Positions 13,705-63,189 of a stretch of DNA of 64,000 nt are shown here, one piece after another. Position 1 is the stretch's first letter; the number at the start of each line of letters is the position of its first letter. The notes below the pieces were generated by a model, which did not search any database, was not told the DNA's origin, and worked only from the letters and a program-made list of their open reading frames with translations. The DNA comes from an uncultured bacterium (GTDB lineage: Bacteria > Patescibacteriota > Minisyncoccia > UBA6257 > 2-01-FULL-56-20): the NCBI GenBank assembly GCA_963844965.1, contig CAWJQC010000007.1:267719-331718 (forward strand), in the 5' to 3' direction. Position numbers and translations under genes: made by a program.

Positions 13705-13718
13705 GACACAATGGTAGT

Positions 13719-21888: not shown

Positions 21889-22015
21889 TTTGCTATTTTG
21901 TCTGAAAAATAGGCCCTGACTCAAAGTCGAGGTTTTTATTTGTTGTCGGCGGGACATTTTGGATTTTTCCAGTAGTAAATGCTAAACTAAATCTACAACT
22001 TAATATGCCTAAACC

Positions 22016-22129
22016 GCCGAAATTTCGGTAACATGGCGTAAAAATCCCATCCCTGATACTAAGCTCCTCGCTTAGCTACTCAGGGATGGGTCGCGTCTCG
22101 AAAGAGGCGTGGGTAACCGAAAGGTTGCC
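22016..22129 (+). promoter_or_regulatory. highly structured palindromic leader upstream of the MTase-nuclease gene (nested perfect hairpins, GNRA-type loops, repeated CCCATCCCTG motif)
   Basis: ccgaaatttcgg; cccatccctga[tactaagctcctcgcttagcta]tcagggatggg (11-bp perfect stem with inner stem); gcgtctcgaaagaggcg; ggtaaccgaaaggttgcc. CCCATCCCTG recurs at 22176, 4 nt before the ATG. Confidence 0.35.
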
Positions 22130-22188
22130 ATGCTAGCGGGGAGCTTCGTGTTTTCCGTTAGCGGCATAGATTAAAACCCATCCCTGCT

Positions 22189-32336: not shown

Positions 32337-32438
32337 GTAGTGTAAAGTTTAAAAATCAAAATTTAAAATGACAATGTAAAATTTAAAAATTTAACTGCAA
32401 TTTTACATTTTGATATTTGCATTTTAAATTTTTGCGAT

Positions 32439-32510
32439 GGCGCATTCGTCTAGTGGCCAGGACAGGTGGTTCTCATCCACCAAACAGGGGTTCGATTCCC
32501 CTATGCGCTA
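32439..32510 (+). tRNA. tRNA-Glu (anticodon CUC)
   Basis: Acceptor GGCGCAT/ATGCGCT, D arm TTCGTCTAGTGGCCAGGACA nearly identical to E. coli tRNA-Glu, anticodon stem GGTGG/CCACC with loop TTCTCAT, T arm AGGGG-TTCGATT-CCCCT. An AT-rich palindrome sits upstream (32337-32438). Confidence 0.8.
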
Positions 32511-32641
32511 CATTCAGCTTTCGTTATCGAGGAGACGCGGTTGCGTCCATTTGTGCTACATTTTCCAAAGATGTTGGCAAGTAAATTAGAAGAGAGTAGG
32601 CTATATTGCGGATAGTAAAATAGCTGTTTCGATACAAAAGC

Positions 32642-34782
32642 ATGCTAGAAAAGATAACCTCAATCAAAAATGTGGGTCGGTTCCGCAACAGTCCTGCTAC
32701 TGGTGACGTGACTTTCCGTCGCCACACAATGATATTCGCCGAGAACGGGAGGGGTAAAACAACTCTTTGTGCCATCCTACGCTCGCTGTCCACCAACACA
32801 CCCGCCTTCATCATCGGGCGCAAGACGTATCGGCGGCAACGGTCAGCCGGAAGTCCAACTACTTCTCAACGGCGACTCCGTAACATTTCATGATGGAGTT
32901 GGAGTGCTCCGTTCCCGAACGTGGCGATCTTTGATGGGACCTACGTCAGCGAAAATGTGTTTGCGGGTGACGTGGTTGATACCGAAAACCGACGTAACCT
33001 TTACCGCGTTATTATTGGTGCTCAAGGCGTGGCTCATGCTGGCCGACTCAATGATCTCGATAACCAGATCAGGACTAAAAATAATGAAATCAGGGATGTC
33101 AGAGCGCGGATGCAACCTCATATGCCGCCAGGTACAACAGTTGAAGATTTCATCGCCTTACCCGAAGATGCGACAATCAGTGAGAAGATTTTGGCGAAAG
33201 AACAGGAACTTCAAGCGGTACAACGTGCTGCTCAGTTACAGCAAAAACAGGGTCTAACAGCAGCTGCGGTACCGACCTTTCCCGCATCATTTGCTGAGAC
33301 TCTTGGCAAAACTCTTGAGAATCTTGGGGCAGGCGCCGAGAAGCTTGTCGCCGATCACATTTCACAGCATCAAATGCGAACGCATGGGGAGACTTGGCTG
33401 AGGGATGGCCTCCCTTTTGTGGTCGATGAGTCATGTCCATTCTGCGGGCAATCGCTTGTAGGCGTCGATTTGATTCAGGTATACAAAACTTTTTTCAGCA
33501 ATGAGTACCACGCGCTGCGTAGTGAAGTGATGAAACTAAGTGCGCAGGTTGAGGGTGTGCTCGCGGAGCGTGTATCTGCGGCAATTGAACAAACGCTTTT
33601 ACAGAACAGCAACAACGCCGAGTTCTGGCAACAATATTGTGATTTCGTGCCGCCCGTTCTGCCGGGAGCGGAAAGGCTTGGAGAAATTATCACCGCGCTC
33701 CGGCAATCCGCTCAGTCTCTTTTACAAATAAAGTCGGGGGCACCGCTTGACGCAGTGCCACCGGACGAGGGATTCACTAAATCACTTGTCGCATTCGAGG
33801 CCTTACGCACCTCCCTAGCCAACTATAATGCCGCAGTCGCCGCAGTAAACGTCACAATTGAAGCCAGAAAGCGTGCTACGCAGGCAACGAATGTGCGCGA
33901 AGTTGAAAATGCGGTCGCCAAACTGAAGGGGCAAAAGAATCGCTATACAGTGGGCGTGCAGGAACTTTGCGCGACCGAGACGCGTCTACAGGGTGAAAAG
34001 AAAATTCTCGAAAACGAAAAAGCGCTGGTGCGAGGTCAACTGGACACTCATACGGGACAGGTAATCACCCAATATGGCCAAATCATCAACCGTTTTCTGG
34101 AGCGGATAAATGCGGGATTCAGAATCACTGTGCCATCACACAACTACCGTGGAGGAACGCCGAGTACGAGCTACCAGATTCTTATCAATCAAAATGCGAT
34201 TGATTCTTGGAGACGCAGCGACGCCGACAGACAGACCGAGCTTCAAGAACACTTTGAGTGCTGGCGACAAAAGCACATTGGCTCTCGCATTTTTTCTGGC
34301 ACAACTTGAGCAGGATTCGGATCGTGCTCAAAAAATAGTCGTTTTCGACGATCCTTTCAGCAGTATGGATAGTTTTCGAAGAAATCATACGATCCATCAG
34401 ATATCCAAATGCGGGGAAACATGCGTTCAAGTAGTCCTTCTTTCGCACGAACCATCATTTCTAAAATTGCTGTGGATCGTGGGCACCGGCAGACCGGAAA
34501 ACGCTCCAGCTGGCACGTGTAGGAGAAGAGAACACCGTCATCATTGAATGGGATATCGAGAAAGCGGTCCAGGCACGTTATCGGGCCGATATAGAAGCGT
34601 TGCAAGGATTTTTTTCATTGGGCAAAGGCGATCAGCGGGAGGTGATTCAGAAGCTACGACTGGTGCTTGAGGCGTATTGCCGAACACTCTATCCAACGCT
34701 CATCGGTGAGGATACATTAGGTGTCATTGTAGAAAATCGGCCACGGCAGCTACACAATTCCCCTCCATCTATCGCGGGATGA
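32642..34782 (+). pseudogene. AAA_13-family (ABC/SMC-like, PrrC/RloC-type) ATPase, ~710 aa reading broken by at least 4 frameshifts
   Basis: Walker A FAENGRGKTTLCAILRSL, then (other frames) GGNGQPEVQLLLNGDSVTFHDGVGVL and VAIFDGTYVSENV. Long coiled-coil middle; ABC signature LSAGDKSTLALAFFLAQL; Walker B KIVVFDDPFSSMD; C-terminal ~150 aa continues through ORF 34600..34782. Pseudogene versus indel errors is unresolved. Confidence 0.55.
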
Positions 34783-34789
34783 TCCTCCA

Positions 34790-36239
34790 ATCAATATATT
34801 TATTGCCGTCGCTGTATCATGGTGAAAGCCCCGCTGCTGCGACCGATATATCGACGATGCAGAGCTCCAAGGATATGTCGCACGCACTCTGAAACTCGTT
34901 GGATGTCTTTAGCGCAAACTCCTATTGATAGCATCATACAAAAACTTGCCGGATTATCCGTTCCGAAGCTAGTGAACTTTTATTCGGCCTTCAAGCTTAT
35001 GACCTTATCTCTCACCACAAACTTGCTCTTGATGAGCGAGAGTAATTCTCGTTTCTCGGTGGGATTACCGTCATTTAGTACATATGCTGCGTATCATCTC
35101 GCGTCGAATTCGGCATCATCCTGCTTTATCGCTCTCACACCTAGGAATGATTTCTGGAATTTGGCGACGCGTTTTGTTTCCTCGATAAAACGCTGTTTGA
35201 TATCGGACTCGTTAATATCCAATTTGCCAATTAATCGATAAGCTGTTTAGTGAGCTCATCTTCGCGCATATATTTGTTCTAACAGAACGTATCTCGCGAC
35301 CGACAGCAACCGTAGTAGACGTACTTGGTCGTCGTACCGTCTTTAAGCTTCTTGAATTTCTCCTGTGCGCTAATGGTCGACCCGCAGAGGCCGCAGGTGA
35401 ATAGTTTCGTAAAGGCGAATTCCTTGACCTCAGCATTTCTGAAAAGACTATCTTGCTTTAGTTGTTCCTGGGTTGCTTCGAATATTTCTCTTGTGATGAG
35501 TGCCTGATGTTTCCCGGTGTACCAGTTACCGCTCCCTACGGGGTATTCGAATACACCGTAATAAAAGGTGTTTTGGAGCAGCCGATAAAGATTGCCCAGT
35601 GCCAGATGTTTGTTGCCTGAATTTGTTCGGAAATTAACTTCAAATTTGAGCCAATGAAATAGCTTCCTGCCGCTCCAGCCATTGGCCACCTTCTCAAACA
35701 TCTGTTTAACGACCGGGGCGCGTGCGGGGTCGATTATGACGCTACCTTTACGATCGACACGTTTCTCGGTCAGATATCCAGTAGGAGCCTGCGCGGGCCA
35801 CAGCCCCATTTCGCAGCGCATCCGCAGTCCTCGCTTCACGTTTACACTCTTATTGTCGTTTTCAAGCTTCGCCTGAGAGCATAGGATCATTAGCAAGAAC
35901 TTTTCGTTCGGTGAGTTGGCAAATCTTTGTCCGTAAGTTCGGATCTCATGAGTAACTTCTGATCCATGAGATCCACGAGGATCTGAGGTCGCCCGCGTTC
36001 CTACTTAACCGATCCGGTGCCCATGTGAGAATTCCTGTATATCGGCCGCTTCTAATATCCTTCAAAATTTCCAGAAACACCGACCGCTCGCCTGAGCTTT
36101 TTGCCGAGTGGGATTCCCGCCGGATGTCGACAATTTCCAATGCTTCGCGTTCGGCGATAAGAAGCATCTCCTTAATTTGCGAATCAATGGAGAGAATCTG
36201 TTTTTCTTCCGACTCAGTGCTCTTTCTCGCATAAAGCAC
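34790..36239 (-). pseudogene. decayed large serine recombinase (homolog of the intact copy at 45417..47345)
   Basis: ORF 35946..36239 is the resolvase catalytic N-terminus (MLYARKSTESEEKQILSIDSQ…ILTWAPDRLSRNAGDL). ORF 35279..35896 is the middle (…MILCSQAKLENDNKSVNVKRGLR…KYVYYGC). The C-terminus is recognisable only in shifted frames at 34790-35278. It is divergent from the intact copy and out of frame. Confidence 0.6.
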
Positions 36240-36433
36240 GTATTTGACCTTTACCTCGGGCGGGATTGTTGTAGGGTCCCGCTCCCTGCGCCCCCGTGGT
36301 TTGGGTGGTCATACCACAATGGATGACGCAACCTCGCCAGAGAGTCCAGACCCCCTGAAAGACCCCAAAAGCCCTACCTAAGGCGAGCGCTAAATCGCTA
36401 TAAAAATCGTCTAAATTAAGCTAAAATGGTGCT

Positions 36434-39225
36434 ATGGCACTGAGCTGGAACGAATTCGATCACGAGCTACTGGCTTCGCAAAAGAGTATGAATCGGCGAA
36501 ACGCCGAGATACAAGATTACGCCGATTTTTCGACAGATTTTTTTAATATCTTTGGCGTCCGGCGTCGTTCGGTTTCTATCTATCAAAAAGCGGTCCAAAA
36601 GATAAATGGCAACACGGGATTTATTAATCTTTTTTGGCCGAGTGTATTGCTCGTTGAACATAAGTCGAAAGGAGAAAACCTCGACAGCGCCTTTCTCCAG
36701 GCAAGCGATTACATCTTAGGACTCCCCGAGGAGGAAAGGCCCCGCTACGTAATTGTCTCTGATTTTGAGCAATTCGTTTATATGATCTCGAAACGGAAAG
36801 TGAAAAAACTGAAATTCACGATATCGCGTTATCAAAACTCGCGTCGCATATACGCCTCTTTGGATTTATAGCTGGCTATAAAGTACGTAAATATAAAGAG
36901 GAAGACCCCGTCAATAAAAAGGCGGTGCGTTTGGTCGTGCAGCTATATCAGGCGCTGTCCGATGGAAATTACCCGAAGGAATATCTCGCGCGTCTTATGG
37001 TCCGTTTCGTGTTTCTCTTTCTTCGCAGACGATGCGGGTATTTTCCCAAAACGTGATATTTTCCGTGATTATATGCTTTATCTCACCAAGGAAAATGGTG
37101 AGGATCTCGGTGGGCACTACATCAAATTTTCGAGATTTTGAATACCCGGAGGATAAGCGCCAGCAGGCCCTTTCTGACGATCTAAAAGACTTTCCCGTAT
37201 GTGAATGGGACTCTTTTTAAGGATCCCTTACCGCTGCCGTTTTTCAATAAGGAAATGCGGAGCGAAATTATCCGCGCAGCGCAATTCGATTGGGGCGCTG
37301 TGTCGCCTGCGATCTTCGGTTCGATGTTCCAATTCGTGATGGATGTTGAGGACAACGATATACGGCACGACTTTGGGGCGCATTATACTTCAGAAAAAAA
37401 TATCTTGAAGGTTGTGGACGGCCTCTTTTTGGACGATATAAAAAATGATCTTGAGGCCGCGGGTCAGAATCGGGCAAAACTGAATGCTCTGTGGGAAAAG
37501 ATCGCCGAGATGCGGCTTCTCGACCCCGCCTGTGGTTGTGGGAACTTCCTTGTCGTTGCCTATCGAGAACTCAGGGTTGTCGAGCTTGAAATCATCACAC
37601 GCCTGTTTCGAGATGAGTTAAAGCGGCTAGAGCAACCAACGCTTGGTATCAAAACCGATGTCTCAAAAATCTCTAAGCTTACTCTCGAGCACATGTTTGG
37701 CATAGAGATTCTTTCGTTCCCGGCGGAGATCGCCCGTCTATCGTTGTGGCTCATTGATCATCAGATGAACGTTATGCTTGGAAGTCTATTCGGGGAATAT
37801 TTCGCGAAGCTTCCTCTTAAAGAGCAACCCCATATTTTTCACGGAGATGCGCTTGCTGTTGATTGGGCGCGACTTGCGCCACAAGGAGATAATTTTTCTT
37901 ATATCCTTGGCAATCCACCCTTCATCGCGAAGCAAGATAAAGTCCTGATCAAAAAGCTGATATGCATAGAATATTTGGCGACTTGAAAGGCGCGGGCGAA
38001 TTAGATTATGTAACGGCATGGTATGCAAAGGCGGCCGATTTCATTCAAGGGACCGGAATCCATTGCGCCTTTGTTTCAACCAACTCGATTACCCAGGGAG
38101 AACAAGCTGGAATTTTATGGCCACTATTGCTCCAGAAAGGAGTCCATATCAATTTCGCGCACAGAAACATTTCGTTGGACAAATGAAGCCCCTGGGCGAG
38201 CTGGTGTGCATTGTGTCATCGTCGGTTTCTCGCTTGAAAAATCGGCTAAGCCGCTTTTATGGGACTACGACGATCCAGCCGGAAATCCCCATCTTGTAAA
38301 AGCAAAAAACATTAATCCATATCTTGTCGATGCTGATGATATTGTCGTTTTACCCCGACGGAAGCCGCTCGCCGATGTCCCGGAAGCGCAATTCGGGAGC
38401 ATGCCGAACGACAGCGGATTTTTACTCTTTGATGACGGGGCCAAAAAGGAAGAGTTTTTACTTCAGGAGCCGGGAGCTGAAAAGTTTATCCGCCCGCTCC
38501 TTTCCGCAAAGGAATATCTAAATGGATCTCTGCGATATTGTTTGTGGCTTAAAGAGGCAACACCTCAAGAATTGCGTTCAATGCCGTACCTCATGCGTCG
38601 CGTTGAAGCCGTACGAACGTATCGCGATCTTTCTTCCCGAGCGGCAACTCGCAAACTTGCCCGAACACCCTACCTTTTTGGAGAAGATCGACAACCAGAA
38701 GGTAATTACGTTCTGATCCCTCGGGTGAGTTCTGAAAGGAGGAGATACATTCCATTTTCGTTTTTTGGGCCGGAGTATATCGCTGGTGATACCTGTATCA
38801 TAGTTCCAAATGCCGCTCCTTATCATTTTGGCGTCCTCCAATCCGTAATGCATATGACATGGATGCGTGCAGTGTGTGGACGCCTCGAATCTCGATATCG
38901 CTATTCAAACGAATTAGTTTATAACAATTTTCCGTGGCCGAAGGATGTTTCTAATGAACAACGGGCGTCGATAGAAAAAGCGGTGCAAAATTTATTGGAC
39001 GTTCGCAAGGGATGTCGCGGAACACTTGCGGATCTGTACGATCCAAACGTGATGCCGCGAGAGCTTCTCGAAGCCCATTCGGCACTCGATAAAGCAGTCG
39101 ATAACGCCTATGGCATGTTCCGTGGCTTCCCCTCGGAAGCTGAGCGATTGAAATTTCTGTTTAAATTGTATGAAGACTACCTCCGTGCGGAGCCTACCCA
39201 ATTCGAGCGTAAGGTTAAGAAATGA
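36434..39225 (+). pseudogene. MmeI-family Type IIL restriction-modification enzyme (N-terminal PD-ExK nuclease + gamma-class N6A MTase + TRD), reading broken across at least 5 frames
   Basis: ORF 36434..36871 MALSWNEF…LFWPSVLLVEHKSKGENLD…QASDY is the conserved MmeI N-terminal endonuclease motif. ORF 37201..37986 has AHYTSE, LDPACGCGNFLVVAYRELR, FGIEILSFPAEIARLSLWLIDHQMN, ILGNPPF. ORF 37962..38186 has CAFVSTNSITQGEQ. ORF 38023..39225 has GRLESRYRYSNELVYNNFPWP and the C-terminal LYDPN…LDKAVDNAYG. Error versus decay is unresolved. Confidence 0.75.
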
Positions 39226-39246: not shown

Positions 39247-42112
39247 ATGGAGTACGTCATCCTCGATATCGAAACTACTGGCCTAGATAAGGAACATTCT
39301 TCTATTATCGAGATAGCTGCTATCCTCGTAGAAAAAGGAGGTGTCAAAAATAGTTATAGCTCTTTTGTTCATTATGATGGCGTTCTCTCGGAAACCGTAA
39401 AGCGGCTAACTGGCATCCAAGAAGAAGATACTCAAAAAAGCTCCACTAATAGCTGCTGTCATTTCTGAGTTGAAAAATTTTATTCAGAAGCGACCCGTTG
39501 TTGCTCATAATGGATATTCCTTCGATTTCTTTTTTCTTGAACGGGAGGGGCTGAAACTGGAAGAAAAATATGACTCTATGGAATTTGCCTTTTTTGTCAT
39601 GCCCACGAACGCTCCTGGCCATTCGATCCCTGCGCTCGCGGAACAATTTAAGTTAGGCGAAGCTCCGCATCGGGCGCTCGGGGATTGCAAGCTCGAACTC
39701 ACAATAATCAATCGTCTTCAAAAGGAATATGGAAAGAGAAAGAAATCAAAACGAGAAGTTCTTGCTCATGCCGCAGGAACGACAGGATGGTGGTGGTCCA
39801 ATTTCCTCTCGGGAGAGAAAGCTCCTACTGATCGAATTTCAAGCCTCATTGAGGCTTATGAGCCATACCGCAAAGAATATCGCGGGGCAGAAATGCTGGG
39901 ATTTCAAACAGAAGTGATCGATATTGCAGAGGTTGAAAAATATTTTCAACCAGCGGTAAAAGCGGGCGAGAAAAACGGAGAGGATGATTACTCGGAAGAT
40001 CGACCCGAACAACGAGAGATGGCGAAAATGGTAGCCACGGCGTTTAACAAGCATAAGCATGCGGTCATAGAAGCCGGTACAGGCACCGGAAAATCAAAAG
40101 CATATCTCGTGCCGTCGCTCCTTTTTGGACTCAAGAACCGCATACCGATGATCATATCGACCCATACCAAAGCACTCCAAGATCAGTTATCCCTCAAAGA
40201 AATACCGCACATAAAGAATCTCATTCGGCCCGATCTGCGCGTTGCTGTTCTCAAGGGAAAACAAAATTACGTCTGCTTGGCAAAATTCGAGATTTTTGCC
40301 GAAGAAACTGTGAAGGAGCTTTCGCAACGATCCTTGTATGAGTTTGGTGAATCGGAAACTCGGTATTCAACACGCCTCGCTTATTTATTGCTCTTCTCGT
40401 GGATTCTTGAAGCTGAGTATGGCGATTGGGACGAGCTGCCATACTGGATCAAAGAGCGGATTCCCAAATATATACAAGCCGAAATCTGCAATATCGATGA
40501 GCTTTGCGGCAATGGGACTTGCGACATCTATGACGCAGAAAAATGTTTCCTTGCTAAGGCCAGGCTTCGCGCACGTGATGCCGATCTTGTGATTGTAAAT
40601 CACGCGCTTGCTCTTATGGGCATCATTATTGAGGATAAGACTCCCGAAATACCCAGTGAGCCAGGCGTCGATGTGCCTCCGAGTAAAATGTATAGTCATA
40701 CGGTCTTTCCTAACGAGTCGAAATTCATCGTATTCGACGAGGCCCAACATCTTGAGGACGACGCAACTTCGGCATGGGAGCATGTGCTCTCCCAGAGTTT
40801 CCTACAACTAATTCTCCAGCAACTTTATGGTAAGCGAGGCGTCCAGCAGCTTGTAAAATCTATCGCCAGCAAAAAAACTGATGAACGACTCACGCGGCTT
40901 GCAGCAAATTTTGAGAGTGGCGAAGGCAACATAAAAATCGGCGTCGAGGCGCTTTTTAAAAATATCTTACCGCACCTCGTTTCCGAAAGTGATACACGGG
41001 AAACTTATACTATGCTCGATGAAATTCCCGATACCTCTCCGGAGCGGAAAGCGCTATTCTCTGAGCTACGGAGCTTGCGGCAACGATTTCTTGATATTGC
41101 AAGAATATTAAGTGAATTTTCGGAAGAAACCGAAGTTCCAAGGATGCGCAAAACCCTTTCCGTCCGCTACAACACTCTTCAACGGATCGTGCGCTCATTC
41201 GATGCCATTCTAGAAAACGATAACGTATATGTGAGATACCTCCAGCGATTCGGTTCAAGCGTTGAAATTAAAGCTGCTCCACTCTCGGTCGGTCCATACC
41301 TGAAAGATTATGTCTACGATAATTTTGCTTCGGTAGTTATGACCTCGGCGACACTCACTGTCGGCAAACGGTTCAATTTCTTCGCGAGCCGCTGTGGGAC
41401 ATTATTAGTCGACAAAGAAAAGATTGGGTACAGACTTTTCCATTCCTCCTTCAACTACGAGAAGCAAGTTAAATTTTTTGTTCCGAAAGGAATTAACTAT
41501 AAAGAAGATCGCGAAACCCATCTTGCGAAAAGCACTGAGTTTCTTAAAAAAGCGATTGTCGCCTCCGGCGGAGGCGCGCTCGTGCTTTGCTCAAGCCACG
41601 ATCAGGTCGGAGAACTTTACCAAGGGCTCTCAAAGACACTTTCTGAAAACAATATTTGGCTTCTCCGGCAGCAGAAAGGCATATCAGTAAGCTCCGTCAT
41701 CAGAGATTTTAGAAGGGACGTCGATTCGGTGCTTATTGGCACCGAGACCCTCTGGCAGGGCATCGATGTTCCCGGGGAATCGCTCCGCAGCCTTTTTATT
41801 TATAAGATTCCATATCGAATGCCTGGCCTTCCTCTCATCAAAGCCCGCCGGAAAGAGATTGAAGATAACGAGCGGGATAGCTTTGCCGAATATTATGAAC
41901 CGCTTGCCGCTCTAATTCTCAAGCAGGGATTCGGGCGGTTGATCCGCAAATCCACTGACATCGGTATCGCCGTACTTCTCGATGAAAACTTTCTTAAAAA
42001 GCCGAGCCTTATGAACTCCCTTCCGGAAGGCGTCCACCCTCAAGCTGCCGAGCCGGAAGCTATTTGCGAAGAACTTCATAAATTACACTTGTTGCGACTG
42101 AAGGAGAGTTAG
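39247..42112 (+). CDS. dinG: bifunctional DnaQ-like 3'-5' exonuclease / DinG-family (Rad3-like) ATP-dependent helicase (frameshift in an A6 run at ~39448)
   Basis: ORF 39247..39468 YVILDIETTGL (Exo I). After an A-run the alternative frame gives …VVAHNGYSFDFFFL (Exo II) and HRALGDCK (Exo III) in ORF 39470..42112. Helicase motifs VIEAGTGTGKSKAYLVPSL, VFDEAQHL (DEAH-like), and C-terminal QGFGRLIR. Confidence 0.8.
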
Positions 42113-44081: not shown

Positions 44082-44377
44082 AGTTAGTTCTTCATTTCTA
44101 TCACGTTGAGCAGCTTTTCGCAAAAGATGAAGGGACGTCAGGAACCCTCAAAAAATATTGTCAAACTGGCTCCAAACGTGATACCTTTTAGGTAATTGAA
44201 TATCAGATAGATCGCCTAAACCACGCATTTTGCATGGCATGGCATTACGCAGAATCTCCCTTCCAGATACCAAACGCCACGTTTGGCGACTTCTGGAAGG
44301 GAGTCACTCCGAAAGGGGTGGGGCCGCAAGGCCCAAGCCAGCGTGGCGTTTTGTGTTCTCTATTTTAAAACAAACCC

Positions 44378-45289
44378 ATGGCCTTATTCTCCATCTCAAA
44401 CGGCAGCACGAAGAAAATATCATCCGTGAAAATCGGGCTTGAAAAAGACGTCCAAAAACTCTTCGAGAAAAACCTTGAGGAGATTTTGAATATCACATTC
44501 CTAGCATCAGAGTATTCAACGAGCTTCGGCGGACGAATCGATACGCTGGGTATGGATCATAACGGAGCGCCAGTGATCATTGAATATAAGCGGTCGCAAA
44601 ATGATAGCGTCATCAACCAAGGCCTGTCATACCTCCGATGGCTTCTTGATCACAAAGCGGATTTTGAAGCGCTGGCGCACCGATTAAAAATTGAGATTGA
44701 AATTGATTGGGCTTCTCCGCGCGTTATCTGCGTGGCCGAGAGTTACAATAAATTTGACCTCGATACCGCCGATCTTCTGCCGATGAACATAGAACTGTTA
44801 CGCTACAAGATTTATGAACAAAACATTCTTCTCGTTGAACCAGAAGTGCAACGCAAAATAAAAATATCCACGTCGGAAGTATTCGAGAAAACAACGCGGG
44901 AGAGGCACGAGTTTAAAGAACAGATCAAACACACCATCGAAGATCATTTGAAATCAGCAAATCCCGCCATCCGCGATCTTTTTGCCGCCATGAAAGAGAA
45001 AGTTCTTGCGCTTGACGAATCAATCAGCGAGGAGCCGAAAGCGCATTACATTGCCTACAAACTGGTGAATAATTTTGTGGATGTTGCGGTGCAAAAGGAC
45101 GCCTTAAAAATTTTCCTCAACATCACGAGCGGCGCGTTAAATGATCCGACATCTCTGGCCCGCGACCTTACTAAGCCGAAACCCGTTGGCCACTGGGGTA
45201 ACGGCGACTACGAACTCAAGCTTGATCAACGGGAAAATCTCAATGCTGTGATGGCGCTCATCAAGCAAAGTTACGAATACAACAAGTAA
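44378..45289 (+). CDS. NucS/DUF91-like PD-(D/E)xK nuclease-domain protein with uncharacterised C-terminal domain
   Basis: 303 aa: …GGRIDTLGMDHNGAPVIIEYKRSQND… resembles the NucS/EndoMS-type nuclease motif. It is preceded by a long perfect hairpin at ~44262-44330. Confidence 0.4.
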   Translation: MALFSISNGSTKKISSVKIGLEKDVQKLFEKNLEEILNITFLASEYSTSFGGRIDTLGMDHNGAPVIIEYKRSQNDSVINQGLSYLRWLLDHKADFEALAHRLKIEIEIDWASPRVICVAESYNKFDLDTADLLPMNIELLRYKIYEQNILLVEPEVQRKIKISTSEVFEKTTRERHEFKEQIKHTIEDHLKSANPAIRDLFAAMKEKVLALDESISEEPKAHYIAYKLVNNFVDVAVQKDALKIFLNITSGALNDPTSLARDLTKPKPVGHWGNGDYELKLDQRENLNAVMALIKQSYEYNK

Positions 45290-45416: not shown

Positions 45417-47345
45417 ATGGCAAAACGAGGAAGACCGCCGAAAAATCAATTGACGGTCGCGCAACCAAAAACCGAATGTGCTCCGGACATGAGTAGTCTC
45501 AATAAGATGCCGAAGTATTGTTTGTACGCGAGGAAGTCATCGGAGAGCGAAGAACGGCAGGCACTCTCCATCGACTCACAGGTCAAGGAGATGTATAAGA
45601 TCGCGGAGCGCGATCATCTCTCGGTCGTTGAAGTACTGACCGAATCACACTCTGCAAAAAGCACCGGATGCCGACCGATCTTTAACCAGATGGTTATAGG
45701 TGTTAAGGATGGCCGCTTTGAGGGCATTCTTACCTGGGCACCGGATCGTCTGAGTCGCAACGCAGGCGACTTGGGCCAGCTGGTCGATCTTATGGACAAC
45801 GGCCATCTTGCGGAAATCCGCACGTTCGGGCAGATATTCAAAAATTCGCCCAACGAAAAATTCTTGCTTATGATTCTCTGCTCACAGGCGAAACTCGAAA
45901 ATGATAACAAGAGCGAGAACGTGAAGCGAGGTCTCCGTGCTGCCGCCGAGCGAGGATATCGCCCAGGCGTCGCACTTGTGGGATACACGAACAGTTATCG
46001 CAGGGATCATCCCGGCGAAGTGGTAATTGATAAACTGCGAGCCCCAATCATAAAGCTTATGTTTGAGAAAGCCGCAAATGGATGGTCAGCGCGGAAGTTG
46101 GTGGTCTGGCTTCGCGGTATCAACTTTACGACGCGCAACGGAACATATCTCTATCTAAGCAGTGTTCATACGCTGTTGCAGAACCACTTTTACTACGGCA
46201 CGTTCGAATACCCTCGGGGCAGCGGCGCATGGCACAAAGGAAATCATAAACCGCTCATTACCAAGGATATGTTCGACCGTGTTCAAGCGCAGATTGAACG
46301 ACGGCGCACCTCGCGCCGCTCGGAGCGGAAATCTTTTGGATTCACCCAGCTCATGCATTGCGGCATCTGTGGCTCCGGCGTTTCCGCCGAAGAAAAATTT
46401 AAGAAACTGGTAGACGGTTCACAGGCCCGCTATGTCTACTACGGATGCAATCGTTCCAAGGGGGTGAAGTGTACCAATACTTACATCCGTGAGGATTTTC
46501 TGGTCCGGCAGTTTGTGAACATCATCGACGAGATATCGCTCGACGAGCTTGGCATACGAAAACTTCTCGGCGAGGAAACTGAGCGTGTCTTTCGGTTTCA
46601 CAATGATGTCATGGGCGATCCTAACGCTTCGGAAACTCAAGAGAAAAAAGATATCGACATTAAAACCTACGCTAAATATCTACTCGCAAGAGGCAACGCC
46701 GAAGAAAAAAGATTACTACTATGCAACATTCAGAACCGACTGATCCTTCGGGATAAAGCCGTATATCTGGAAGAAGTAGGCGGTCTTACCTGGAAGGACT
46801 ATATTGGCCATATGAGAAAGTGCGCGAACTGCGGATCAAAAAACGTGAACGAGAGCGGACCGTATGCGAACTGGAAATTCGGCGATACGCCAATCGACGA
46901 CACGCCGCGGATCGTGTATTTCGCTTGTCTCGACTGTGAGCAATCGTGGAAGCAGGTCAACGAGAATATCTTGCGATTAATGCGCGAGTATGTGGTGGTG
47001 CCAGAGGGAAACGGGGCGTGGATTAAAACACCTGGCGGCTCGGAGTTTTTCGCGACGCCGTCTTTCGCCGCGCGGTTCAGAGACACGGTGGAGATAGACG
47101 GCAAAAAAGTGCCACCGAAAAAAATTCTCGGGGAAATGCTGTACTGGCCAGACAGGAACGCTTACGAGACGACGATCGAATATGACGACGGAAGCGAACG
47201 GACATTTGATATCCCAAGTCTTCGTGGCAGGAACAATACAGAAGAAGGCATGAAGCCGATCAGCAATAAGGATGGTCTTATGGAGTACAAAGAAGGTAAG
47301 ATGCAAACTTATTTCGGTCGCGGTCTCCAATATGACGGCCGATAA
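45417..47345 (+). CDS. large serine recombinase (phage-type serine integrase), intact
   Basis: 642 aa: resolvase domain (LYARKSSESEERQALSIDSQ…ILTWAPDRLSRNAGDL), recombinase domain, zinc ribbon (CGICGS…YYGCNRSKGVKC), coiled coil and a second C4 motif. Confidence 0.85.
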   Translation: MAKRGRPPKNQLTVAQPKTECAPDMSSLNKMPKYCLYARKSSESEERQALSIDSQVKEMYKIAERDHLSVVEVLTESHSAKSTGCRPIFNQMVIGVKDGRFEGILTWAPDRLSRNAGDLGQLVDLMDNGHLAEIRTFGQIFKNSPNEKFLLMILCSQAKLENDNKSENVKRGLRAAAERGYRPGVALVGYTNSYRRDHPGEVVIDKLRAPIIKLMFEKAANGWSARKLVVWLRGINFTTRNGTYLYLSSVHTLLQNHFYYGTFEYPRGSGAWHKGNHKPLITKDMFDRVQAQIERRRTSRRSERKSFGFTQLMHCGICGSGVSAEEKFKKLVDGSQARYVYYGCNRSKGVKCTNTYIREDFLVRQFVNIIDEISLDELGIRKLLGEETERVFRFHNDVMGDPNASETQEKKDIDIKTYAKYLLARGNAEEKRLLLCNIQNRLILRDKAVYLEEVGGLTWKDYIGHMRKCANCGSKNVNESGPYANWKFGDTPIDDTPRIVYFACLDCEQSWKQVNENILRLMREYVVVPEGNGAWIKTPGGSEFFATPSFAARFRDTVEIDGKKVPPKKILGEMLYWPDRNAYETTIEYDDGSERTFDIPSLRGRNNTEEGMKPISNKDGLMEYKEGKMQTYFGRGLQYDGR

Positions 47346-49533: not shown

Positions 49534-50861
49534 TTAGATCTTTTGAGGCTTGATGCCTGTTATGCGCTCGACTCTTTTTAGGATCACGGTGAGGTACACC
49601 GGAGATTTCTCCATCAGATAACAGCGGCGTTGCATTTTTAATGCAGCAGCCCATGTGGATCCGCTGCCCCCGAATGGCTCAAGGACGAGGTCGTTGCGCC
49701 TCGTAAGCACCTTGATATAGGGAACCAGGATCTCCACGGGCTTCGTGCCGAAAATGACGCCCTGCCCGGAATTCTTTTCGTCCGAGGCGACATGCTCGAT
49801 GAAGTCCGTAGGGCAAAACTTTTTTCCTTTTTCGTAGGACTCCCATTGCGGTTTCCCCGAGGTGGCAAACAACGCGTTTTCGTACTCGTTCTGGAGCAGC
49901 TCATCGCCCTCGTCGTCAAGGTTCAGCACCACTTCACCGCCGGTTCCCACAAGCGCGATGTCGTGCTTGTTGAAGAATTTGTATTTCGCTGCAAAACCGG
50001 AGACACGATTCGGAAGATGCCACGTGATCGTGTTCCGATATTTCCAATGTTGTTCTAGGGCGTTCCATATAGTCCGTAGATTCTTCGGATTTTCGAACAC
50101 AATGATGGAGAAGTCTGGCTTTTGCACCTTGGCTACATTCGCCATCCAGAGATCCGTAAAATTCTCCGGCAGTGATTCCGTCTCGAGATACCTGCGATCG
50201 CGCTTCAAACCGAACCCCTCCGTCGCTTTGCCGTTGCGCTTCTTGCCGTGGAGGTAATCCAAAAGGTAAGGGGGGTCGGTGAAACAGAGATTCGCCCGCT
50301 CGCCGTTCATGAGTTTCATGATGTCGGCCTCTACTGTGCTGTCCCCACACATCGCCCGGCTGCCGTTCAGCTCGAACACGTCGCCCTTTTGAATCTCTAT
50401 CTTGTCGATCTGGAGCTTCTGCAACTCCTTCGCGAGGTCAAATTCTTCTGGCGTTTCATCGAGCGCGAAGATTTTATCCAACTCTTCGCTTGAGAACCCA
50501 ATATCTTTCAAGATGGATTCATCGAACTCTGCGAGGGCCGCGATATCAAATTCGCCCGTGTTTTTGTTCAGCCGAATTATGATCTCGGCCTCCTTCTCTG
50601 GATCAGGAACGTTGATACGAACGACAGGCACCGTCTCTACACCCATCTCGATCAGTACCTTTGCGCGGAAGTTACCGCCGAGGATCACGCCTTCGCGGCC
50701 CGGCGCACTGTTAATGACTAATGGATCGATTATGCCGTGGCGCTCGAGACTCGCGCAGTTGAGTGTTTGCCTCCTTGGTCCATAGGCGAGGGTTCCTTTC
50801 GGGATGGCGTAGCGAAGCGAGAGGAACGTAATCGATCTTCAACTTTTCTTGTATGTCTTGG
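49534..50861 (-). CDS. ParB-like nuclease domain / DNA methyltransferase fusion (phage-type), frameshift near 50760
   Basis: In a shifted frame upstream of ORF 49534..50688: MDQDIQEKLKIDYVPLASLRHPERNPR (ParB N-terminal motif). Then …LERHGIIDPLVINSAPGREGVILGGNFRAKVLIEMGVETVPV. MTase motifs CFTDPPY (IV) and LVLEPFGGSGSTWAAA (I). Confidence 0.7.
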
Positions 50862-51623: not shown

Positions 51624-51887
51624 ATCTCTATTCTAAAGGATTAGCGAGCAAATCTCAAAACCAAACAGGCAAAACCGACCCCCTTCAGTCCTAAGTAGAT
51701 GTTTCCGCGGGATAAGATATAATTCAATTTATGGCTAAAAAACCGGTTTCGTTTATCGCTACCAAATATAAGGACAAGCCTGTTAGGGTCAGTTTTTACA
51801 CAAAGAAGGGCGAACGGGTGAGTTTTGCAGCTGAAAAAAAAGTTCCCGTAAAAGTGCAGGTACGGTTCAAGGCTCGCAAAAAGTAGA

Positions 51888-52331
51888 ATGGCGAGCACTT
51901 TTGATTACCAATTTGGGCTGACGGAAATTGTTCCATCAAAACAAGCAGACGCAAAAGAAGGACAGAAAGTTGCCGCCTTCAAACAATTGGTTGATGAGCG
52001 AATAACGTCAGGGCTTCCCGGAGGGTTCCCATCAAAGAACGAAATCTTTATCGCCATATTACAGTTTTTTTCTGGCATAAAAGAATATCAAAGGCGTGAT
52101 ATCGATAATATCAGCAAAACGATTCTTGATTCCCTAAAGGGCAAGATTTATCACGACGATAGCCAGGTAAGGACGTTACTTATAAGCAAGAAGGTTTCTT
52201 CTCGCGTCCCAGTAAATTTTGTTTTCGTTGGCATCAGGGAACTGCACGGCGAAACCGACGTCGAAATCGTTCGGGCCACCATGATGGAACAGGCAGTTAC
52301 CCTGTATCAGACATCGGCAAAAGGACGCTAG
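51888..52331 (+). CDS. rusA: RusA-family Holliday junction resolvase (phage)
   Basis: 147 aa: …RRDIDNISKTILDSLKGKIYHDDSQV… matches the RusA DxDNxxKxxlDaL…DD motif. Confidence 0.55.
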   Translation: MASTFDYQFGLTEIVPSKQADAKEGQKVAAFKQLVDERITSGLPGGFPSKNEIFIAILQFFSGIKEYQRRDIDNISKTILDSLKGKIYHDDSQVRTLLISKKVSSRVPVNFVFVGIRELHGETDVEIVRATMMEQAVTLYQTSAKGR

Positions 52332-52344
52332 AGGTGGGCTTTCT

Positions 52345-60507: not shown

Positions 60508-63128
60508 ATGTTCGATTTTATCAAGCAATATTTTCATAAGCGCTCGCTCGCGGCGCTGGAGGAAAAAGTTCTGGAAATCAACGAACTTGAACCGGAAATA
60601 CAGAAACTGACCGACGAAGAACTCAAGGCGGCGAGTTTGGATTTGAAGTCAAAAATCCGCGAGGGGATGACGCTTGACGAAGCCCTGCCGCGGGCTTTTG
60701 CTTTGGTCCGCGAAGCGGCGAAGCGTACGCTCGGCCAGCGGCCGTTTGACGTCCAGTTATTGGGCGGCATGGTGTTGCATCAGGGAGCGATCGCCGAAAT
60801 GGTGACGGGTGAAGGGAAAACACTTGCCGCCGTCGCGCCCGCTTATTTGAACGCCTTAAGCGGGAACGGCACGCACGTTGTCACTGTTAACGAATATCTT
60901 GCCCGCCGCGACGCAGTGTGGATGGGGCAGATATACCGCGCGCTCGGTCTCACGGTCGCGTGCCTCGTGCCGAACGCGGCGTTCATGTACGATCCCGAGT
61001 GGAAAATTCCCGAGGGCGCGGAAGATACTTATAGACAAAGAGCGCGATACGACGGGAGCGTTTTTGGTCCAGCAGGAGTTTTTGAAACCTGTATCGCGCC
61101 GCGAGGCGTATCTCGCCGACATTACTTACGGCACGAACCACGAATTCGGCTTCGATTATTTGAGGGATAATCTGGCTTACCGGTTTGAAGATTGCGTTCA
61201 GCGCGAGCTTAACTACGCCATCGTTGACGAGGTGGACAGCATTCTAATAGACGAGGCGCGGACGCCGCTTATCATCGCGGCGCCGGATGTGCAGTCAAGC
61301 GATTATTACAAGGCCTTCGCGAGAATCGCGACAAAATTTGGAGAAGGAGAAGGACTATGCCATTGACGAAAAATTGAAAACAGCAAGCATCACGGAAAAC
61401 GGCATTGACAAGGTGGAGAAAATAATCGGCGTGAAAAATCTTTACGCGCCGGAAAACATCCGTCTCGTCCATTATTTGGAGGAAAGTTTGAAAGCGAAAG
61501 CCCTTTTCCAGCGCGACAAGGATTATGTAGTGAAGAACGGAGAGGTCATCATCGTTGACGAATTTACGGGACGCATGCTTCACGGCCGGCGCTATCAGGG
61601 CGGCCTGCATCAGGCGATCGAGGCTAAAGAAGGAGTTCTCGTCAAGGAGGAATCGCGGACTTACGCGAAAATTTCAATCCAGAACTATTTCAGGATGTAT
61701 AAAAAAATCGCCGGCATGACCGGCACGGCGCAGACATCCGCGGAGGAATTTTTCAAGGTTTACAAACTGGAAGTCGTCAGCATCCCGACGAACAAGCCGT
61801 TAGTACGGGAAAGATTTGAACGACCTCGATATATAAGAAGTTTCAAAGCAAAATTCGAGGCGGTGGTCAAGCGAAGTGGCGGAGCGGCAGAAAATCGGCC
61901 AGCCGGTGCTTTTGGGAACGACCTCGATCGCAAAGAACGAGATGTTTTCCGCGGCGCTTTCGAGCGCGGGCGTCGAAGCACGAGGTTTTGAACGCGAAGA
62001 ACAACGAGCGCGAGGGCGCGATCATTGCGCAGGCGGGGCGTCCCGGCGCCGTGACGGTTGCGACGAATATGGCGGGCCGCGGCGTGGACATAATCCTGGC
62101 GGCAACCCGCCGGAACCCGAGGAAGCCGGAAAGGTGCGAGAAGCGGGGGGACTGCACGTTATCGGCACCGAACGGCACGAAGCGCGCCGCATTGATAATC
62201 AGCTTCGCGGCCGCGCCGGGCGGCAGGGCGATCCGGGCTCCTCGCAATTTTTCCTTTCGCTTGAGGACGATCTTCTGCGGATATTCGGCGGCGACCGGGT
62301 TAAAAATCTGATGGAGCGGTTTGATCTGCCGGATGACGAGCCGATCACAGTTCGGATTTATTTCAAAGGCCGTCGCGCAGGCGCAGGCAAAAGTGGAAGG
62401 CGCGAATTTTGACCTGCGGAAACATTTGCTGGAATACGACGATGTGTTGAACAAGCAGCGGACGGCGGTTTACAAGAGGCGGCTGCAGATTTTGCAGAGT
62501 ATGAATAAGGAAGTTTTGGCCGGGATCGTTTATGAAGCGGCGTCGGCCTGCTTGGACAATATTTTGAGCCAGGGTGCGGCGGAGTTGCCGCCGGATGCCG
62601 AGGGTAACGCGCCCAAGGCTCCGGATATCAAAAAAATGTTTGAGGAAACCGGGATTGTAAATAAAAATTTCCAATTTCCAATTTCCAATTTTCAAGACGC
62701 AACGTCGGAGGACTTGAAGGAATTTCTGAAAAAACGCAGTGCTGACGTCGCCGAAGACCCACAGACGCTGAATCGTGCTCTCGGCATTTTGGATATGCTT
62801 TGGATGAACCATTTGGAGGATTTGGAGGCGCTAAGCGAGTCGGTTGGACTCCGCGCTTACGGCCAAAAGGACCCGCTTGTGGAGTATCGCCACGAGGCGC
62901 ACCACCTTTTCAAGAATTTTTGGGACAATTTCAACGGCTGGATTTTTTCCAATATTTTCCGCCTTGCGGGAAATACGCAAACAACCGTGAAAGCGGGAAA
63001 TACTTCGCAGAATTTCGCGAAAGTATCAGCAGTTTCGCAAGGTTCTTGCGCCGACCGATAAGGTCGGGCGGAATGACCCCTGCCCGTGCGGTAGCGGAAA
63101 GAAATACAAGAAATGTCACGGGGCGTGA
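60508..63128 (+). CDS. secA: preprotein translocase ATPase SecA (reading broken by at least 6 single-base indels; C-terminal zinc-finger present)
   Basis: Consecutive SecA blocks in shifting frames: [38 protein letters not shown]; [23 protein letters not shown]…[20 protein letters not shown]; EKDYAIDEK…[12 protein letters not shown]…[15 protein letters not shown]; [10 protein letters not shown]…[23 protein letters not shown]…[35 protein letters not shown]; [19 protein letters not shown]; terminal [21 protein letters not shown]. Contains a (tttccaat)x3 in-frame repeat. Confidence 0.85.
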
Positions 63129-63189
63129 GGGTAAGAAAAATGCCGCTGGGTAAACCATGCGGCGGAAATAATCTTGTGCTACAGGATCG

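What the first reader, a model, noticed from the sequence alone, without database searches (positions are those of the whole stretch)
36434..39225. MmeI-family Type IIL restriction-modification enzyme present but split across at least 5 reading frames
The N-terminal MALSWNEF…LLVEHKSKG…QASDY nuclease motif, the gamma-class MTase motifs (AHYTSE, LDPACGCGNF, NPPF), CAFVSTNSITQGEQ and the GRLESRYRYS C-terminal region are all unmistakably MmeI-like. The reading switches frame around 36870-37200, ~37960-37990, ~38020 and ~38190. Essential genes in this window show the same indel density, so this could be an intact single-polypeptide RM system masked by sequencing errors rather than a dead gene. If intact, it predicts an MmeI-like 6-7 bp asymmetric m6A methylation motif for this organism.
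Basis: partly seen in the sequence, partly recalled or inferred. Interest (0 to 1): 0.55.

Follow-up and report, generated by a model that had tools for sequence, protein, structure and literature searches.

The report
Frameshifted MmeI-type restriction-methylase gene, probably sequencing errors
A complete MmeI-family restriction-modification gene from a Patescibacteria-like genome is broken by nine single-base frameshifts, and these are most likely assembly errors because the essential secA gene in the same window is broken just as densely; it is an ordinary new member of a well-known enzyme family.

Summary
Window 36434-39225 (+) encodes a full-length, collinear MmeI-family (Type IIL) enzyme of about 930 aa. 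It carries all five MmeI Pfam domains, matches MmeI (PDB 5HR4) at E 1e-267, and is 78-80% identical to intact homologues from uncultured Patescibacteria.

After frame correction there is no in-frame stop. The protein departs from the family at only 2 of 162 near-invariant columns, which is normal for intact homologues. This argues against an old pseudogene.

- secA has 7 frameshifts in 2.6 kb.
- ftsI (at its active-site SxxK), a Mur ligase and purD each have one.
- Most housekeeping genes are intact.

Indels cluster in two stretches, 34.25-39.44 kb (14 shifts in four genes on both strands) and about 61.0-63.1 kb.

Best reading, at about 0.6: assembly artefacts masking a gene that is under selection.

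Two additions:
- The catalytic Asp of the PD-ExK nuclease motif is Asn here (115 of 115 homologues have Asp), so restriction activity is doubtful.
- The TRD residues predict a CAGRAC-like m6A motif.

No independent copy or read data could be found.

The parts
36434..39225 (+). Whole MmeI-family (Type IIL) restriction-modification gene. It gives about 930 codons once nine 1-nt frameshifts are bridged.
36466..36963 (+). N-terminal PD-ExK nuclease domain (Pfam MmeI_N, residues 12-177 of the corrected protein). It contains frameshifts 2 and 3; frameshift 1 lies just upstream near 36452.
   Evidence: segment map.
36626..36628 (+). Codon AAT (Asn65) at the position of MmeI catalytic Asp70. E75 (36656-36658) and K77 (36662-36664) are retained.
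   Evidence: 115 of 115 homologues have D. D70, E80 and K82 are essential for cleavage in MmeI (PMC4833311; PMC2731913).
36530..36532 (+). Codon TCG (Ser33) where 115 of 115 homologues have Trp.
36985..37218 (+). Helical spacer domain (Pfam MmeI_hel, residues 185-262). It contains frameshifts 4 to 7.
37450..38259 (+). Gamma-class N6-adenine methyltransferase domain (Pfam MmeI_Mtase, residues 340-609). Motif I is DPACGCGNF and motif IV is NPPF at 37912-37923. It contains frameshifts 8 and 9.
38332..38943 (+). Target recognition domain (Pfam MmeI_TRD, residues 634-837), with no frameshift. Specificity residues: F654, M657, R736, E751, R764, D786, T787, E819, R821, R823.
   Evidence: rules from PMC2731914 and PMC4833311.
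38950..39180 (+). C-terminal domain (Pfam MmeI_C, residues 840-916).
36452..36456 (+). Frameshift 1: 1-nt deletion (GAACG-AATTCG; probably AAA to AA).
36502..36508 (+). Frameshift 2: 1-nt insertion. Frame 0 resumes here; the ~50 nt between shifts 1 and 2 match the homologues only in another frame.
36762..36771 (+). Frameshift 3: 1-nt deletion (probably CAAATT to CAATT). As sequenced, translation from 36434 ends at the stop at 36869-36871.
37017..37021 (+). Frameshift 4: 1-nt insertion in CTCTTTCTTC.
37116..37119 (+). Frameshift 5: 1-nt deletion (GGGCA-CTACAT).
37143..37145 (+). Frameshift 6: 1-nt deletion (AATAC-CCGGAG).
37194..37197 (+). Frameshift 7: 1-nt insertion (TTTCCC[G]TATGTG), not in a homopolymer.
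37937..37940 (+). Frameshift 8: 1-nt deletion (probably GATAAAAGT to GATAAAGT).
38165..38169 (+). Frameshift 9: 1-nt insertion (AGA[A]ACA).
34989..36245 (-). Neighbouring large serine recombinase gene with 3 frameshifts (near 35980, 35948 and 35235) and no stops. It lies in the same indel-dense stretch.
   Evidence: alignment to the intact paralogue at 45417-47342.
32894..34544 (+). AAA_13 ATPase gene, split at about 34250 (Pfam profile 206-486 | 497-577). This marks the start of the indel-dense stretch.
39247..42112 (+). DnaQ-exonuclease/DinG helicase fusion gene starting 21 nt downstream. It has one insertion in an A6 run near 39434-39439, and the next 2.67 kb are clean. This marks the end of the indel-dense stretch.
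60508..63137 (+). Control: the essential secA gene with 7 frameshifts (near 61040, 61340, 61860, 61973, 62115, 62347, and between 62980 and 63060).

Best explanation
The locus is a complete, single-polypeptide MmeI-family (Type IIL) restriction-modification gene in a Patescibacteria-like genome. Its domain order is an N-terminal PD-ExK nuclease, a helical spacer, a gamma-class N6-adenine methyltransferase, a target recognition domain (TRD) and a C-terminal domain.

The nine +/-1 frameshifts are most likely errors of the assembled sequence. They belong to a 5.2-kb indel-dense stretch (34.25-39.44 kb) that also breaks three neighbouring genes on both strands. A second stretch of the same kind breaks the essential secA gene seven times. 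The real gene is therefore probably an open 930-codon frame under purifying selection.

By homology to MmeI it would bind an asymmetric 6-bp site, flip out the adenine at position 5 and methylate it on one strand only. If nuclease-competent, it would cut about 20/18 nt downstream. This mechanism is inferred, not shown.

From the published residue-to-base rules, its TRD predicts 5'-CAGRAC-3' (possibly CAGGAC).

The catalytic Asp of the nuclease motif reads Asn. If that base is real, the protein is a restriction-deficient methyltransferase.
For: Identity:
- The corrected protein matches MmeI 5HR4 over residues 1-927 versus 1-913, at E 1e-267.
- All five MmeI Pfam domains score above their cut-offs.
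- Intact 917-930 aa homologues are 78-80% identical over their full length.

No sign of decay:
- There are no in-frame stops after frame correction.
- Only 2 of 162 columns that are at least 98% conserved deviate. Intact homologues deviate at 1.5 +/- 1.6, and 42 of 115 homologues deviate at least as much.
- If nine real indels had come with 5-20 neutral substitutions each, one would expect 1.9-7.5 stops and 6-24 extra deviations at conserved columns. The probability of seeing 2 or fewer deviations is 0.02 or less. The substitution-to-indel ratio used is my assumption.

Error process shown in essential genes:
- secA has 7 shifts in 2.6 kb, while its invariant motifs are intact.
- ftsI is shifted inside YEPG|SVFK, and a Mur ligase and purD have one shift each.
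- The densities in the MmeI gene and in secA do not differ (p = 0.8).

The shifts are regional, not gene-specific:
- AAA_13 has 1, the recombinase 3, the MmeI gene 9 and the start of dinG 1.
- They include both insertions and deletions and mostly lie outside long homopolymers.

Specificity:
- R736/E751 predict C at position 1, and F654/M657 predict A at position 2.
- R764/D786 predict G at position 3, and T787/R823 predict a purine at position 4.
- E819/R821 predict C at position 6.
- The rules are from PMC2731914 and PMC4833311.
Against: - There are no reads and no independent copy. The closest sequences in every collection searched are at most 80% identical, so the frameshifts cannot be checked directly.
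- Indel density here is about 30 times the window background (about 3 versus about 0.1 per kb). It stops abruptly at dinG: the chance of 0 shifts in the next 2.67 kb at the local rate is 7e-4.
- Three of the four affected genes in this stretch are accessory (ATPase, recombinase, RM gene). A decaying island would look the same.
- MmeI-family genes are known to be genuinely disrupted in sequenced strains. NmeAIII, DraRI and ApyPI are examples, though each has a single lesion (PMC2731913).
- The two changes at invariant residues (W33S, D65N) both fall in the nuclease domain (p = 0.011). This hints at real loss of nuclease function.
- The specificity prediction rests on covariation rules derived from about 20 enzymes. 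Position 1 proved resistant to engineering (PMC4833311).
Confidence: 0.6

Rival explanations
1. Genuine pseudogene: the gene is dead. It belongs to a decaying accessory island (AAA_13 ATPase, serine recombinase, MmeI-type gene) that has accumulated real small indels. The shifts in secA, ftsI and murE are a separate phenomenon (assembly errors).
For: - 14 shifts sit in 5.2 kb of mostly accessory genes, then stop abruptly in dinG.
- The island lies just after tRNA-Glu.
- The catalytic D65N and the W33S change both lie in the nuclease domain.
- Natural disruption of MmeI-family genes is documented (PMC2731913).
- Truncated or split homologues exist in other contigs, L020 and L026.
Against: - It needs two independent explanations for the same kind of lesion in one window, because secA shows the same density and type of +/-1 indels.
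- There are no nonsense codons in the corrected 930-codon MmeI frame or the 413 aligned recombinase codons.
- There is no excess of substitutions at conserved columns.
- Documented natural lesions in this family are single, not ninefold.
Confidence: 0.3
2. The artefact arises from a mixed-strain consensus. The stretch is polymorphic in the sampled population, and the assembler or polisher produced a mosaic consensus with unbalanced indels. No single real molecule carries this sequence.
For: - Indels are clustered in stretches rather than spread evenly.
- Signs alternate in 7 of 8 successive pairs in the MmeI gene (- + - + - - + - +), as expected from local misalignment.
- Close homologues differ at specificity residues (KD versus ER at the position-6 pair), so alleles could plausibly co-exist.
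Against: - secA is a core gene and unlikely to be strongly polymorphic, and its shifts are 6 insertions to 1 deletion.
- No substitution mosaic is visible. Identity to P0001 is even along the gene.
- This cannot be told apart from plain low-coverage error without reads.
Confidence: 0.08
3. The frameshifts are real and are decoded by ribosomal frameshifting or transcriptional slippage, so full-length proteins are still made.
For: Only that essential genes (secA, ftsI, a Mur ligase) carry shifts while their sequences remain conserved.
Against: - Both +1 and -1 corrections would be needed at more than 20 sites.
- The sites share no slippery motif and mostly lie outside homopolymer runs.
- Long A/T runs in the gene have the correct length.
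- Most genes need no correction.
Confidence: 0.01

Closest known systems
MmeI (Methylophilus methylotrophus; PDB 5HR4), the founding Type IIL enzyme, which recognises TCCRAC and cuts at 20/18
   Same: - Collinear full-length match, 1-927 versus 1-913, at E 1e-267.
- The same five domains.
- E80 and K82 equivalents, motif I, NPPF, and an identical ESRYR segment (MmeI 806-810).
- No adjacent companion methyltransferase gene.
   Different: - Asn replaces the catalytic Asp70.
- The contact residues for positions 1 to 3 differ: R/E versus A/Y, F/M versus Y/K, and R/D versus E/N. The predicted site is therefore CAGRAC-like, not TCCRAC.
- As sequenced, the gene is split by nine frameshifts.
Uncharacterised intact homologues P0001 (930 aa; eight ~4-6 kb ENA metagenome contigs, next to smpB) and P0002 (917 aa; Candidatus Paceibacterota MAG)
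   Same: - 78-80% amino-acid identity over the full length, and 72% nucleotide identity.
- P0002, P0004 and P0006 share the same ten-residue specificity signature, REFMRDTRER.
   Different: - They are uninterrupted ORFs with Asp at the catalytic position and Trp at position 33.
- P0001 and P0003 carry K/D at the position-6 pair, which predicts G there.
- Their gene neighbourhoods differ from this window.
SdeAI (Sulfurimonas denitrificans), an MmeI-family enzyme that recognises CAGRAG and cuts at 21/19 (PMC2731913)
   Same: The predicted site matches SdeAI's at positions 1 to 5 (CAGRA).
   Different: - Position 6 is predicted to be C (E/R pair) rather than G.
- I did not align the SdeAI sequence here, so the comparison covers recognition sites only.
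YeeA/DnmA group: MmeI homologues that lack the nuclease motif and act as methyltransferases (PMC2731913; PMC9973331)
   Same: - It may be restriction-deficient.
- A helicase gene lies immediately downstream.
   Different: - The N-terminal domain here is a normal MmeI_N domain with E and K retained. Only the Asp is changed.
- The downstream helicase is a DnaQ-DinG fusion, not YeeB/YeeC.
- That helicase is not linked to the MmeI homologue in related loci.
NmeAIII, DraRI and ApyPI: MmeI-family genes naturally disrupted in the sequenced strain (PMC2731913)
   Same: - A family member whose ORF is interrupted although the rest of the sequence is well conserved.
- The reading frame can be repaired by comparison with homologues.
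   Different: - Those genes have one confirmed lesion each (a stop codon or a 2-nt slip in a GC repeat).
- Here there are nine +/-1 indels, in a sequence whose essential genes are also shifted.

Membership tests
MmeI family (Type IIL RM enzymes) | Similarity along the whole length of MmeI: nuclease, helical spacer, MTase, TRD and C-terminal domain in one polypeptide | tested here: met
   1-927 versus 1-913, E 1e-267. MmeI_N, MmeI_hel, MmeI_Mtase, MmeI_TRD and MmeI_C all score above their curated cut-offs.
MmeI family (Type IIL RM enzymes) | PD-ExK endonuclease residues aligned with MmeI D70, E80 and K82. Morgan et al. 2009 used this as their selection criterion. | tested here: not met
   E75 and K77 are present, but the D70 equivalent is Asn65 (AAT at 36626-36628). 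All 115 homologues have Asp. Whether this base is real cannot be checked without reads.
MmeI family (Type IIL RM enzymes) | Gamma-class N6-adenine methyltransferase motifs (motif I, FxGxG-like; motif IV, NPPF/Y) | tested here: met
   DPACGCGNF at residue 364 and NPPF at residue 494. MmeI_Mtase profile covered 1-257 of 259.
MmeI family (Type IIL RM enzymes) | Single uninterrupted ORF of about 900-1200 codons | tested here: inconclusive
   As sequenced, nine frameshifts break the ORF. secA in the same window is broken 7 times, so the sequence is not reliable on this point.
MmeI family (Type IIL RM enzymes) | No companion methyltransferase gene flanking the enzyme | tested here: met
   The neighbours are a serine recombinase (-) and a DnaQ-DinG fusion (+). 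The nearest other MTase genes lie 12.6 kb upstream (22162-23784) and 10.3 kb downstream (49537-50838).
MmeI family (Type IIL RM enzymes) | AdoMet-dependent cleavage about 20/18 nt 3' of an asymmetric site, with m6A on one strand only | not testable with these tools
   This is a biochemical property. Only a site prediction (CAGRAC-like) could be made.
YeeA/DnmA-type MmeI homologues (methyltransferase only) | First ~100 residues unlike MmeI, no PD-ExK motif, and flanking YeeB-like helicase and YeeC-like genes | tested here: not met
   The N-terminus aligns with MmeI from residue 1 and hits MmeI_N. The flanking genes are a recombinase and a DnaQ-DinG fusion.

The most novel reading that the evidence does not exclude
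The frameshifts are artefacts but the Asp-to-Asn change at the nuclease active site is real. This would be a natural MmeI-type enzyme caught turning into a restriction-dead, solitary m6A methyltransferase (predicted site CAGRAC) in a Patescibacteria genome. Its methyltransferase and recognition domains would still be under selection, a route to orphan methylases distinct from the YeeA/DnmA group.
Probability: 0.3. Interest if true: 0.3.

Novelty: new member of a known kind. Interest (0 to 1): 0.15.

Why it matters
- For annotation, the gene should be called a frameshifted MmeI-family RM or methyltransferase gene of uncertain integrity, not a set of five small ORFs and not a confirmed pseudogene.
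- The main practical lesson concerns the assembly. It contains kilobase-scale stretches with about 3 indels per kb that break secA, ftsI and a Mur ligase. Any pseudogene call from this genome needs read support.
- If the gene is open in vivo, it gives a testable methylome prediction: m6A at the A of CAGRAC, on one strand. That could help bin or host-link contigs of this uncultured lineage in long-read metagenomes.
- The D-to-N active-site change, if real, would be a small but clear example of an RM enzyme losing restriction while keeping methylation.

Tried and rejected
- Plain tblastn of P0001 against the window ran one gapped alignment through all frames and hid the shifts. I replaced it with my own frameshift-aware dynamic programme and a DNA alignment.
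- I searched for the source genome or an independent copy in three ways: a genome-contig scan with the DinG protein (best hit 60%, Patescibacteria MAGs), exact-product look-ups of three window ORFs (none on record), and a metagenome scan with the corrected protein (best hit 80%). No read-like check was possible.
- I tested whether the predicted site is depleted in the window. CAGRAC had z = -1.7, but the unrelated TCCRAC had z = -2.0, so the test is uninformative at 64 kb.
- The promoter and terminator scan of 36.0-39.6 kb gave promoter-like counts at shuffle level and weak terminator-like hits, all but one inside the gene and none at its ends.
- The search for tRNA-derived direct repeats (att sites) over 32-55 kb found none.
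- I tested whether substitutions are concentrated in the nuclease domain. The signal is weak: p = 0.03 at the 90% threshold, and 12 of 115 homologues are as extreme. It fades at lower thresholds, so I do not claim domain-wide relaxation.
- I considered homopolymer-type (454, Ion Torrent or nanopore) error as the cause. Most indels lie in runs of 1-4 bases, while an A7 run in the gene is correct, so the error type cannot be named.
- I considered recoding or slippage and rejected it (see rivals).
- I searched the literature for the LOOT RNA and found nothing usable in the main texts.
Full report
**What is there.** Window 36434-39225 (+) contains four larger ORF fragments (36434-36871, 37201-37986, 37962-38186, 38023-39225) and some small ones. 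Translating all three frames shows MmeI-like sequence passing from frame to frame. I assembled a conceptual protein and used it as a query. It found thousands of full-length relatives that carry the Pfam set MmeI_N, MmeI_hel, MmeI_Mtase, MmeI_TRD and MmeI_C. The best are P0001 (930 aa, 78% identity, 100% coverage) and P0002 (917 aa, from a Candidatus Paceibacterota MAG). The corrected protein aligns with MmeI itself (PDB 5HR4) over residues 1-927 versus 1-913 at E 1e-267. It hits all five MmeI Pfam domains above their curated cut-offs.

**How many frameshifts, and where.** Ordinary tblastn ran through the frames and was misleading. A frameshift-aware protein-to-DNA alignment against P0001, P0002 and P0003 found the same nine events each time and no in-frame stop on the corrected path. 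Identity to P0001 was 734 of 920 residues. A nucleotide alignment with the P0001 gene (L006:1180-3972, 72% identity) independently shows exactly nine 1-nt gaps plus two 3-nt in-frame indels near the 3' end. The five deletions lie near 36452, 36765, 37116, 37145 and 37937. The four insertions lie near 36504, 37017, 37197 and 38165. As sequenced, translation from 36434 would stop at 36869-36871. The contexts are short runs (A2-A4, C2-C3) or no run at all (for example TTTCCC[G]TATG). An A7 run inside the gene has the correct length.

**Is the gene decaying?** I built the 930-aa corrected protein and aligned it with 115 full-length homologues. It deviates at 2 of 162 columns that are at least 98% conserved. 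Intact homologues deviate at 1.5 +/- 1.6 such columns, and 42 of 115 deviate at least as often. There is no nonsense codon. Suppose nine real indels had been accompanied by neutral substitutions at 5-20 per indel (my assumption for bacterial pseudogenes). One would then expect 1.9-7.5 stops and 6-24 extra hits at conserved columns, and the probability of the observed 2 or fewer deviations is 0.02 or less. An old pseudogene is therefore unlikely. The lesions are essentially only indels.

**Controls in the rest of the window.** I mapped coding frames with a simple codon-usage Viterbi and scanned about 70 ORFs against Pfam.
- Most housekeeping genes are intact: PHO4, PhoU-like, PGK, IMPase, cyclophilin, MscL, OTCase, L10, L7/L12, MraZ, MraW, TIM and MurB.
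- Several are split with consecutive profile coordinates. These are purD (near 26840), ftsI (Transpeptidase 1-43 | 44-286), a Mur ligase (Mur_ligase_C 2-50 | 42-127), an AAA_13 ATPase (near 34250) and the DnaQ-DinG fusion (RNase_T 1-67 | 62-160).
- The ftsI insertion sits inside the active-site motif, YEPG|SVFK.
- secA is the decisive control. Its three-frame translation, aligned to Thermotoga SecA (3DIN), switches frame 0>1>2>0>1>0>1, and the zinc-finger tail is in frame 2. That is 7 shifts in about 2.6 kb, with the invariant SecA motifs intact.
- The densities in the MmeI gene (3.2 per kb) and in secA (2.6 per kb) do not differ (p = 0.8).
- A viable bacterium cannot have a secA broken seven times, so the sequence itself carries indel errors.

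**Errors are clustered.**
- Using the intact paralogue (45417-47342) as a guide, the serine recombinase upstream of the MmeI gene (34989-36245, minus strand) has 3 shifts and no stop.
- Using three relatives as guides, dinG has a single insertion, in an A6 run near 39434-39439, and is then clean for 2.67 kb.
- So 14 shifts lie between 34.25 and 39.44 kb, in four genes on both strands, and 7 lie between about 61.0 and 63.1 kb. The rest of the window runs at about 0.1 per kb.
- Both insertions and deletions occur.

**Interpretation.** The simplest account is one error process with regionally poor consensus, and that is my best explanation (0.6). The rival is a truly decaying accessory island, with the secA errors a separate matter. 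It keeps weight (0.3) for four reasons. The stretch covers mostly accessory genes and ends abruptly. MmeI-family genes are known to be genuinely disrupted in sequenced strains, although NmeAIII, DraRI and ApyPI each have a single lesion (PMC2731913). Truncated homologues exist elsewhere (L020, L026). No reads or closer copies were available.

**The nuclease site.** The two deviations at invariant columns are W33S and D65N, and 115 of 115 homologues have W and D there. D65 aligns with MmeI D70. D70 is the Asp of V69-D70...E80-M81-K82, and its mutation abolishes cleavage (PMC4833311; PMC2731913). Both changes fall among the 17 conserved columns of the nuclease domain, out of 162 in total (p = 0.011). 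A broader test of domain-specific relaxation is weak. The invariant secA motifs show no substitution errors despite seven indels, so I lean towards D65N being real. The enzyme would then methylate but not cut. This is inference.

**Predicted specificity.** The alignment to MmeI has no gaps across residues 703-805, with a constant offset of +13. The published contact positions map as follows.
- Position 1: A723/Y738 map to R736/E751. Arg or Lys together with Glu goes with C:G.
- Position 2: Y642/K645 map to F654/M657. K645M shifts MmeI to A.
- Position 3: E751/N773 map to R764/D786. The E751R+N773D mutant recognises G.
- Position 4: A774/R810 map to T787/R823. Arg gives a purine, and a small residue at 774 gives R while a bulky one gives G.
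- Position 6: E806/R808 map to E819/R821, which gives C.

The rules come from PMC2731914 and PMC4833311. The prediction is 5'-CAGRAC-3' (or CAGGAC), with the A at position 5 methylated. P0002, P0004 and P0006 share this signature. P0001 and P0003 have K/D at the position-6 pair, which predicts CAGRAG, the site of SdeAI. A depletion test in 64 kb was uninformative.

**Context.** The nearest relatives of the neighbouring DinG protein are Saccharibacteria, Paceibacterota and Kaiserbacteria MAGs, so the window is from a Patescibacteria-like genome. The gene lies in an accessory region that follows tRNA-Glu (32439-32511). A broken serine recombinase lies 190 nt upstream in divergent orientation, and dinG starts 21 nt downstream. 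In homologue loci the neighbours differ (smpB upstream), so no conserved partner gene is implied. This agrees with the single-polypeptide nature of the family.

**Verdict.**
- The gene is a new member of a thoroughly characterised family.
- Its apparent fragmentation says more about the assembly than about biology.
- Interest is low (0.15). The only mildly novel possibility is a natural restriction-dead D-to-N variant.

Noticed in passing
window 60508-63137 (+): The essential secA gene is split by 7 single-base frameshifts although its invariant motifs are conserved. With the stretch at 34.25-39.44 kb it marks kilobase-scale, indel-dense segments in an otherwise fairly clean sequence.
   Followed up: yes
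window ~30203 (ftsI), ~32065 (Mur ligase), ~26840 (purD), ~10345 (Big_2/PG_binding protein): Isolated single frameshifts occur in cell-wall and purine genes. The ftsI insertion lies inside the SxxK active-site motif (YEPG|SVFK). The shift near 10345 is inferred only from overlapping ORFs.
   Followed up: partly
window 22006-22129 (+) and 44213-44334 (+): There are two LOOT RNA (RF03000) matches, at 84 and 58 bits. One lies directly upstream of a DNA methylase-Mrr_cat fusion ORF (22162-23784). The other lies directly upstream of a DUF5655 ORF (44369-45286) followed by a large serine recombinase. This may link the RNA to DNA-modification or mobile genes.
   Followed up: no
window 34989-36245 (-) and 45417-47342 (+): Two paralogous large serine recombinase genes lie in inverted orientation (55% amino-acid identity; 77% nucleotide identity over 125 + 60 nt). 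They bracket about 9.2 kb that holds the MmeI-type gene, dinG, a DUF2779 gene, a LOOT RNA and a DUF5655 gene. The upstream copy is frameshifted 3 times.
   Followed up: partly
L020:6001-8719; L005:10001-12139; L026:5998-7620: In other metagenome contigs a close MmeI homologue (80% identity) ends at residue 392 and is followed within 250 nt by a related serine recombinase gene. A DinG homologue ends at residue 489 and is followed by a recombinase fragment. A more distant MmeI homologue is truncated at about residue 350 and split. Serine-recombinase elements may insert into these genes.
   Followed up: partly
window 22162-23784 (+) and 49537-50838 (-): There are two further DNA methyltransferase genes of the N6_N4_Mtase family. 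The first is fused to an Mrr_cat / inactive-REase-like C-terminal domain. Both appear intact.
   Followed up: no
window 32358-32432, just upstream of tRNA-Glu(ctc) at 32439-32511: An AT-rich inverted repeat (two 34-nt arms, 79% complementary, 7 nt apart) immediately precedes the tRNA that opens the accessory region.
   Followed up: no
window 51625-54150: A 2.5-kb stretch with low GC (about 0.43) has no clear coding frame in my frame map and no Rfam match. It could be non-coding, foreign, or another error-dense segment.
   Followed up: no
window 12662-13755 (-): An IS3-type transposase shows the usual orfA (HTH) and orfB (rve) arrangement in two overlapping frames. This is a natural programmed -1 frameshift and should not be counted as an error.
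   Followed up: no
window 36530-36532: The W33S change hits the same conserved Trp whose codon is a TAG stop in the naturally inactive NmeAIII gene (position 32; PMC2731913). This is probably a coincidence.
   Followed up: no
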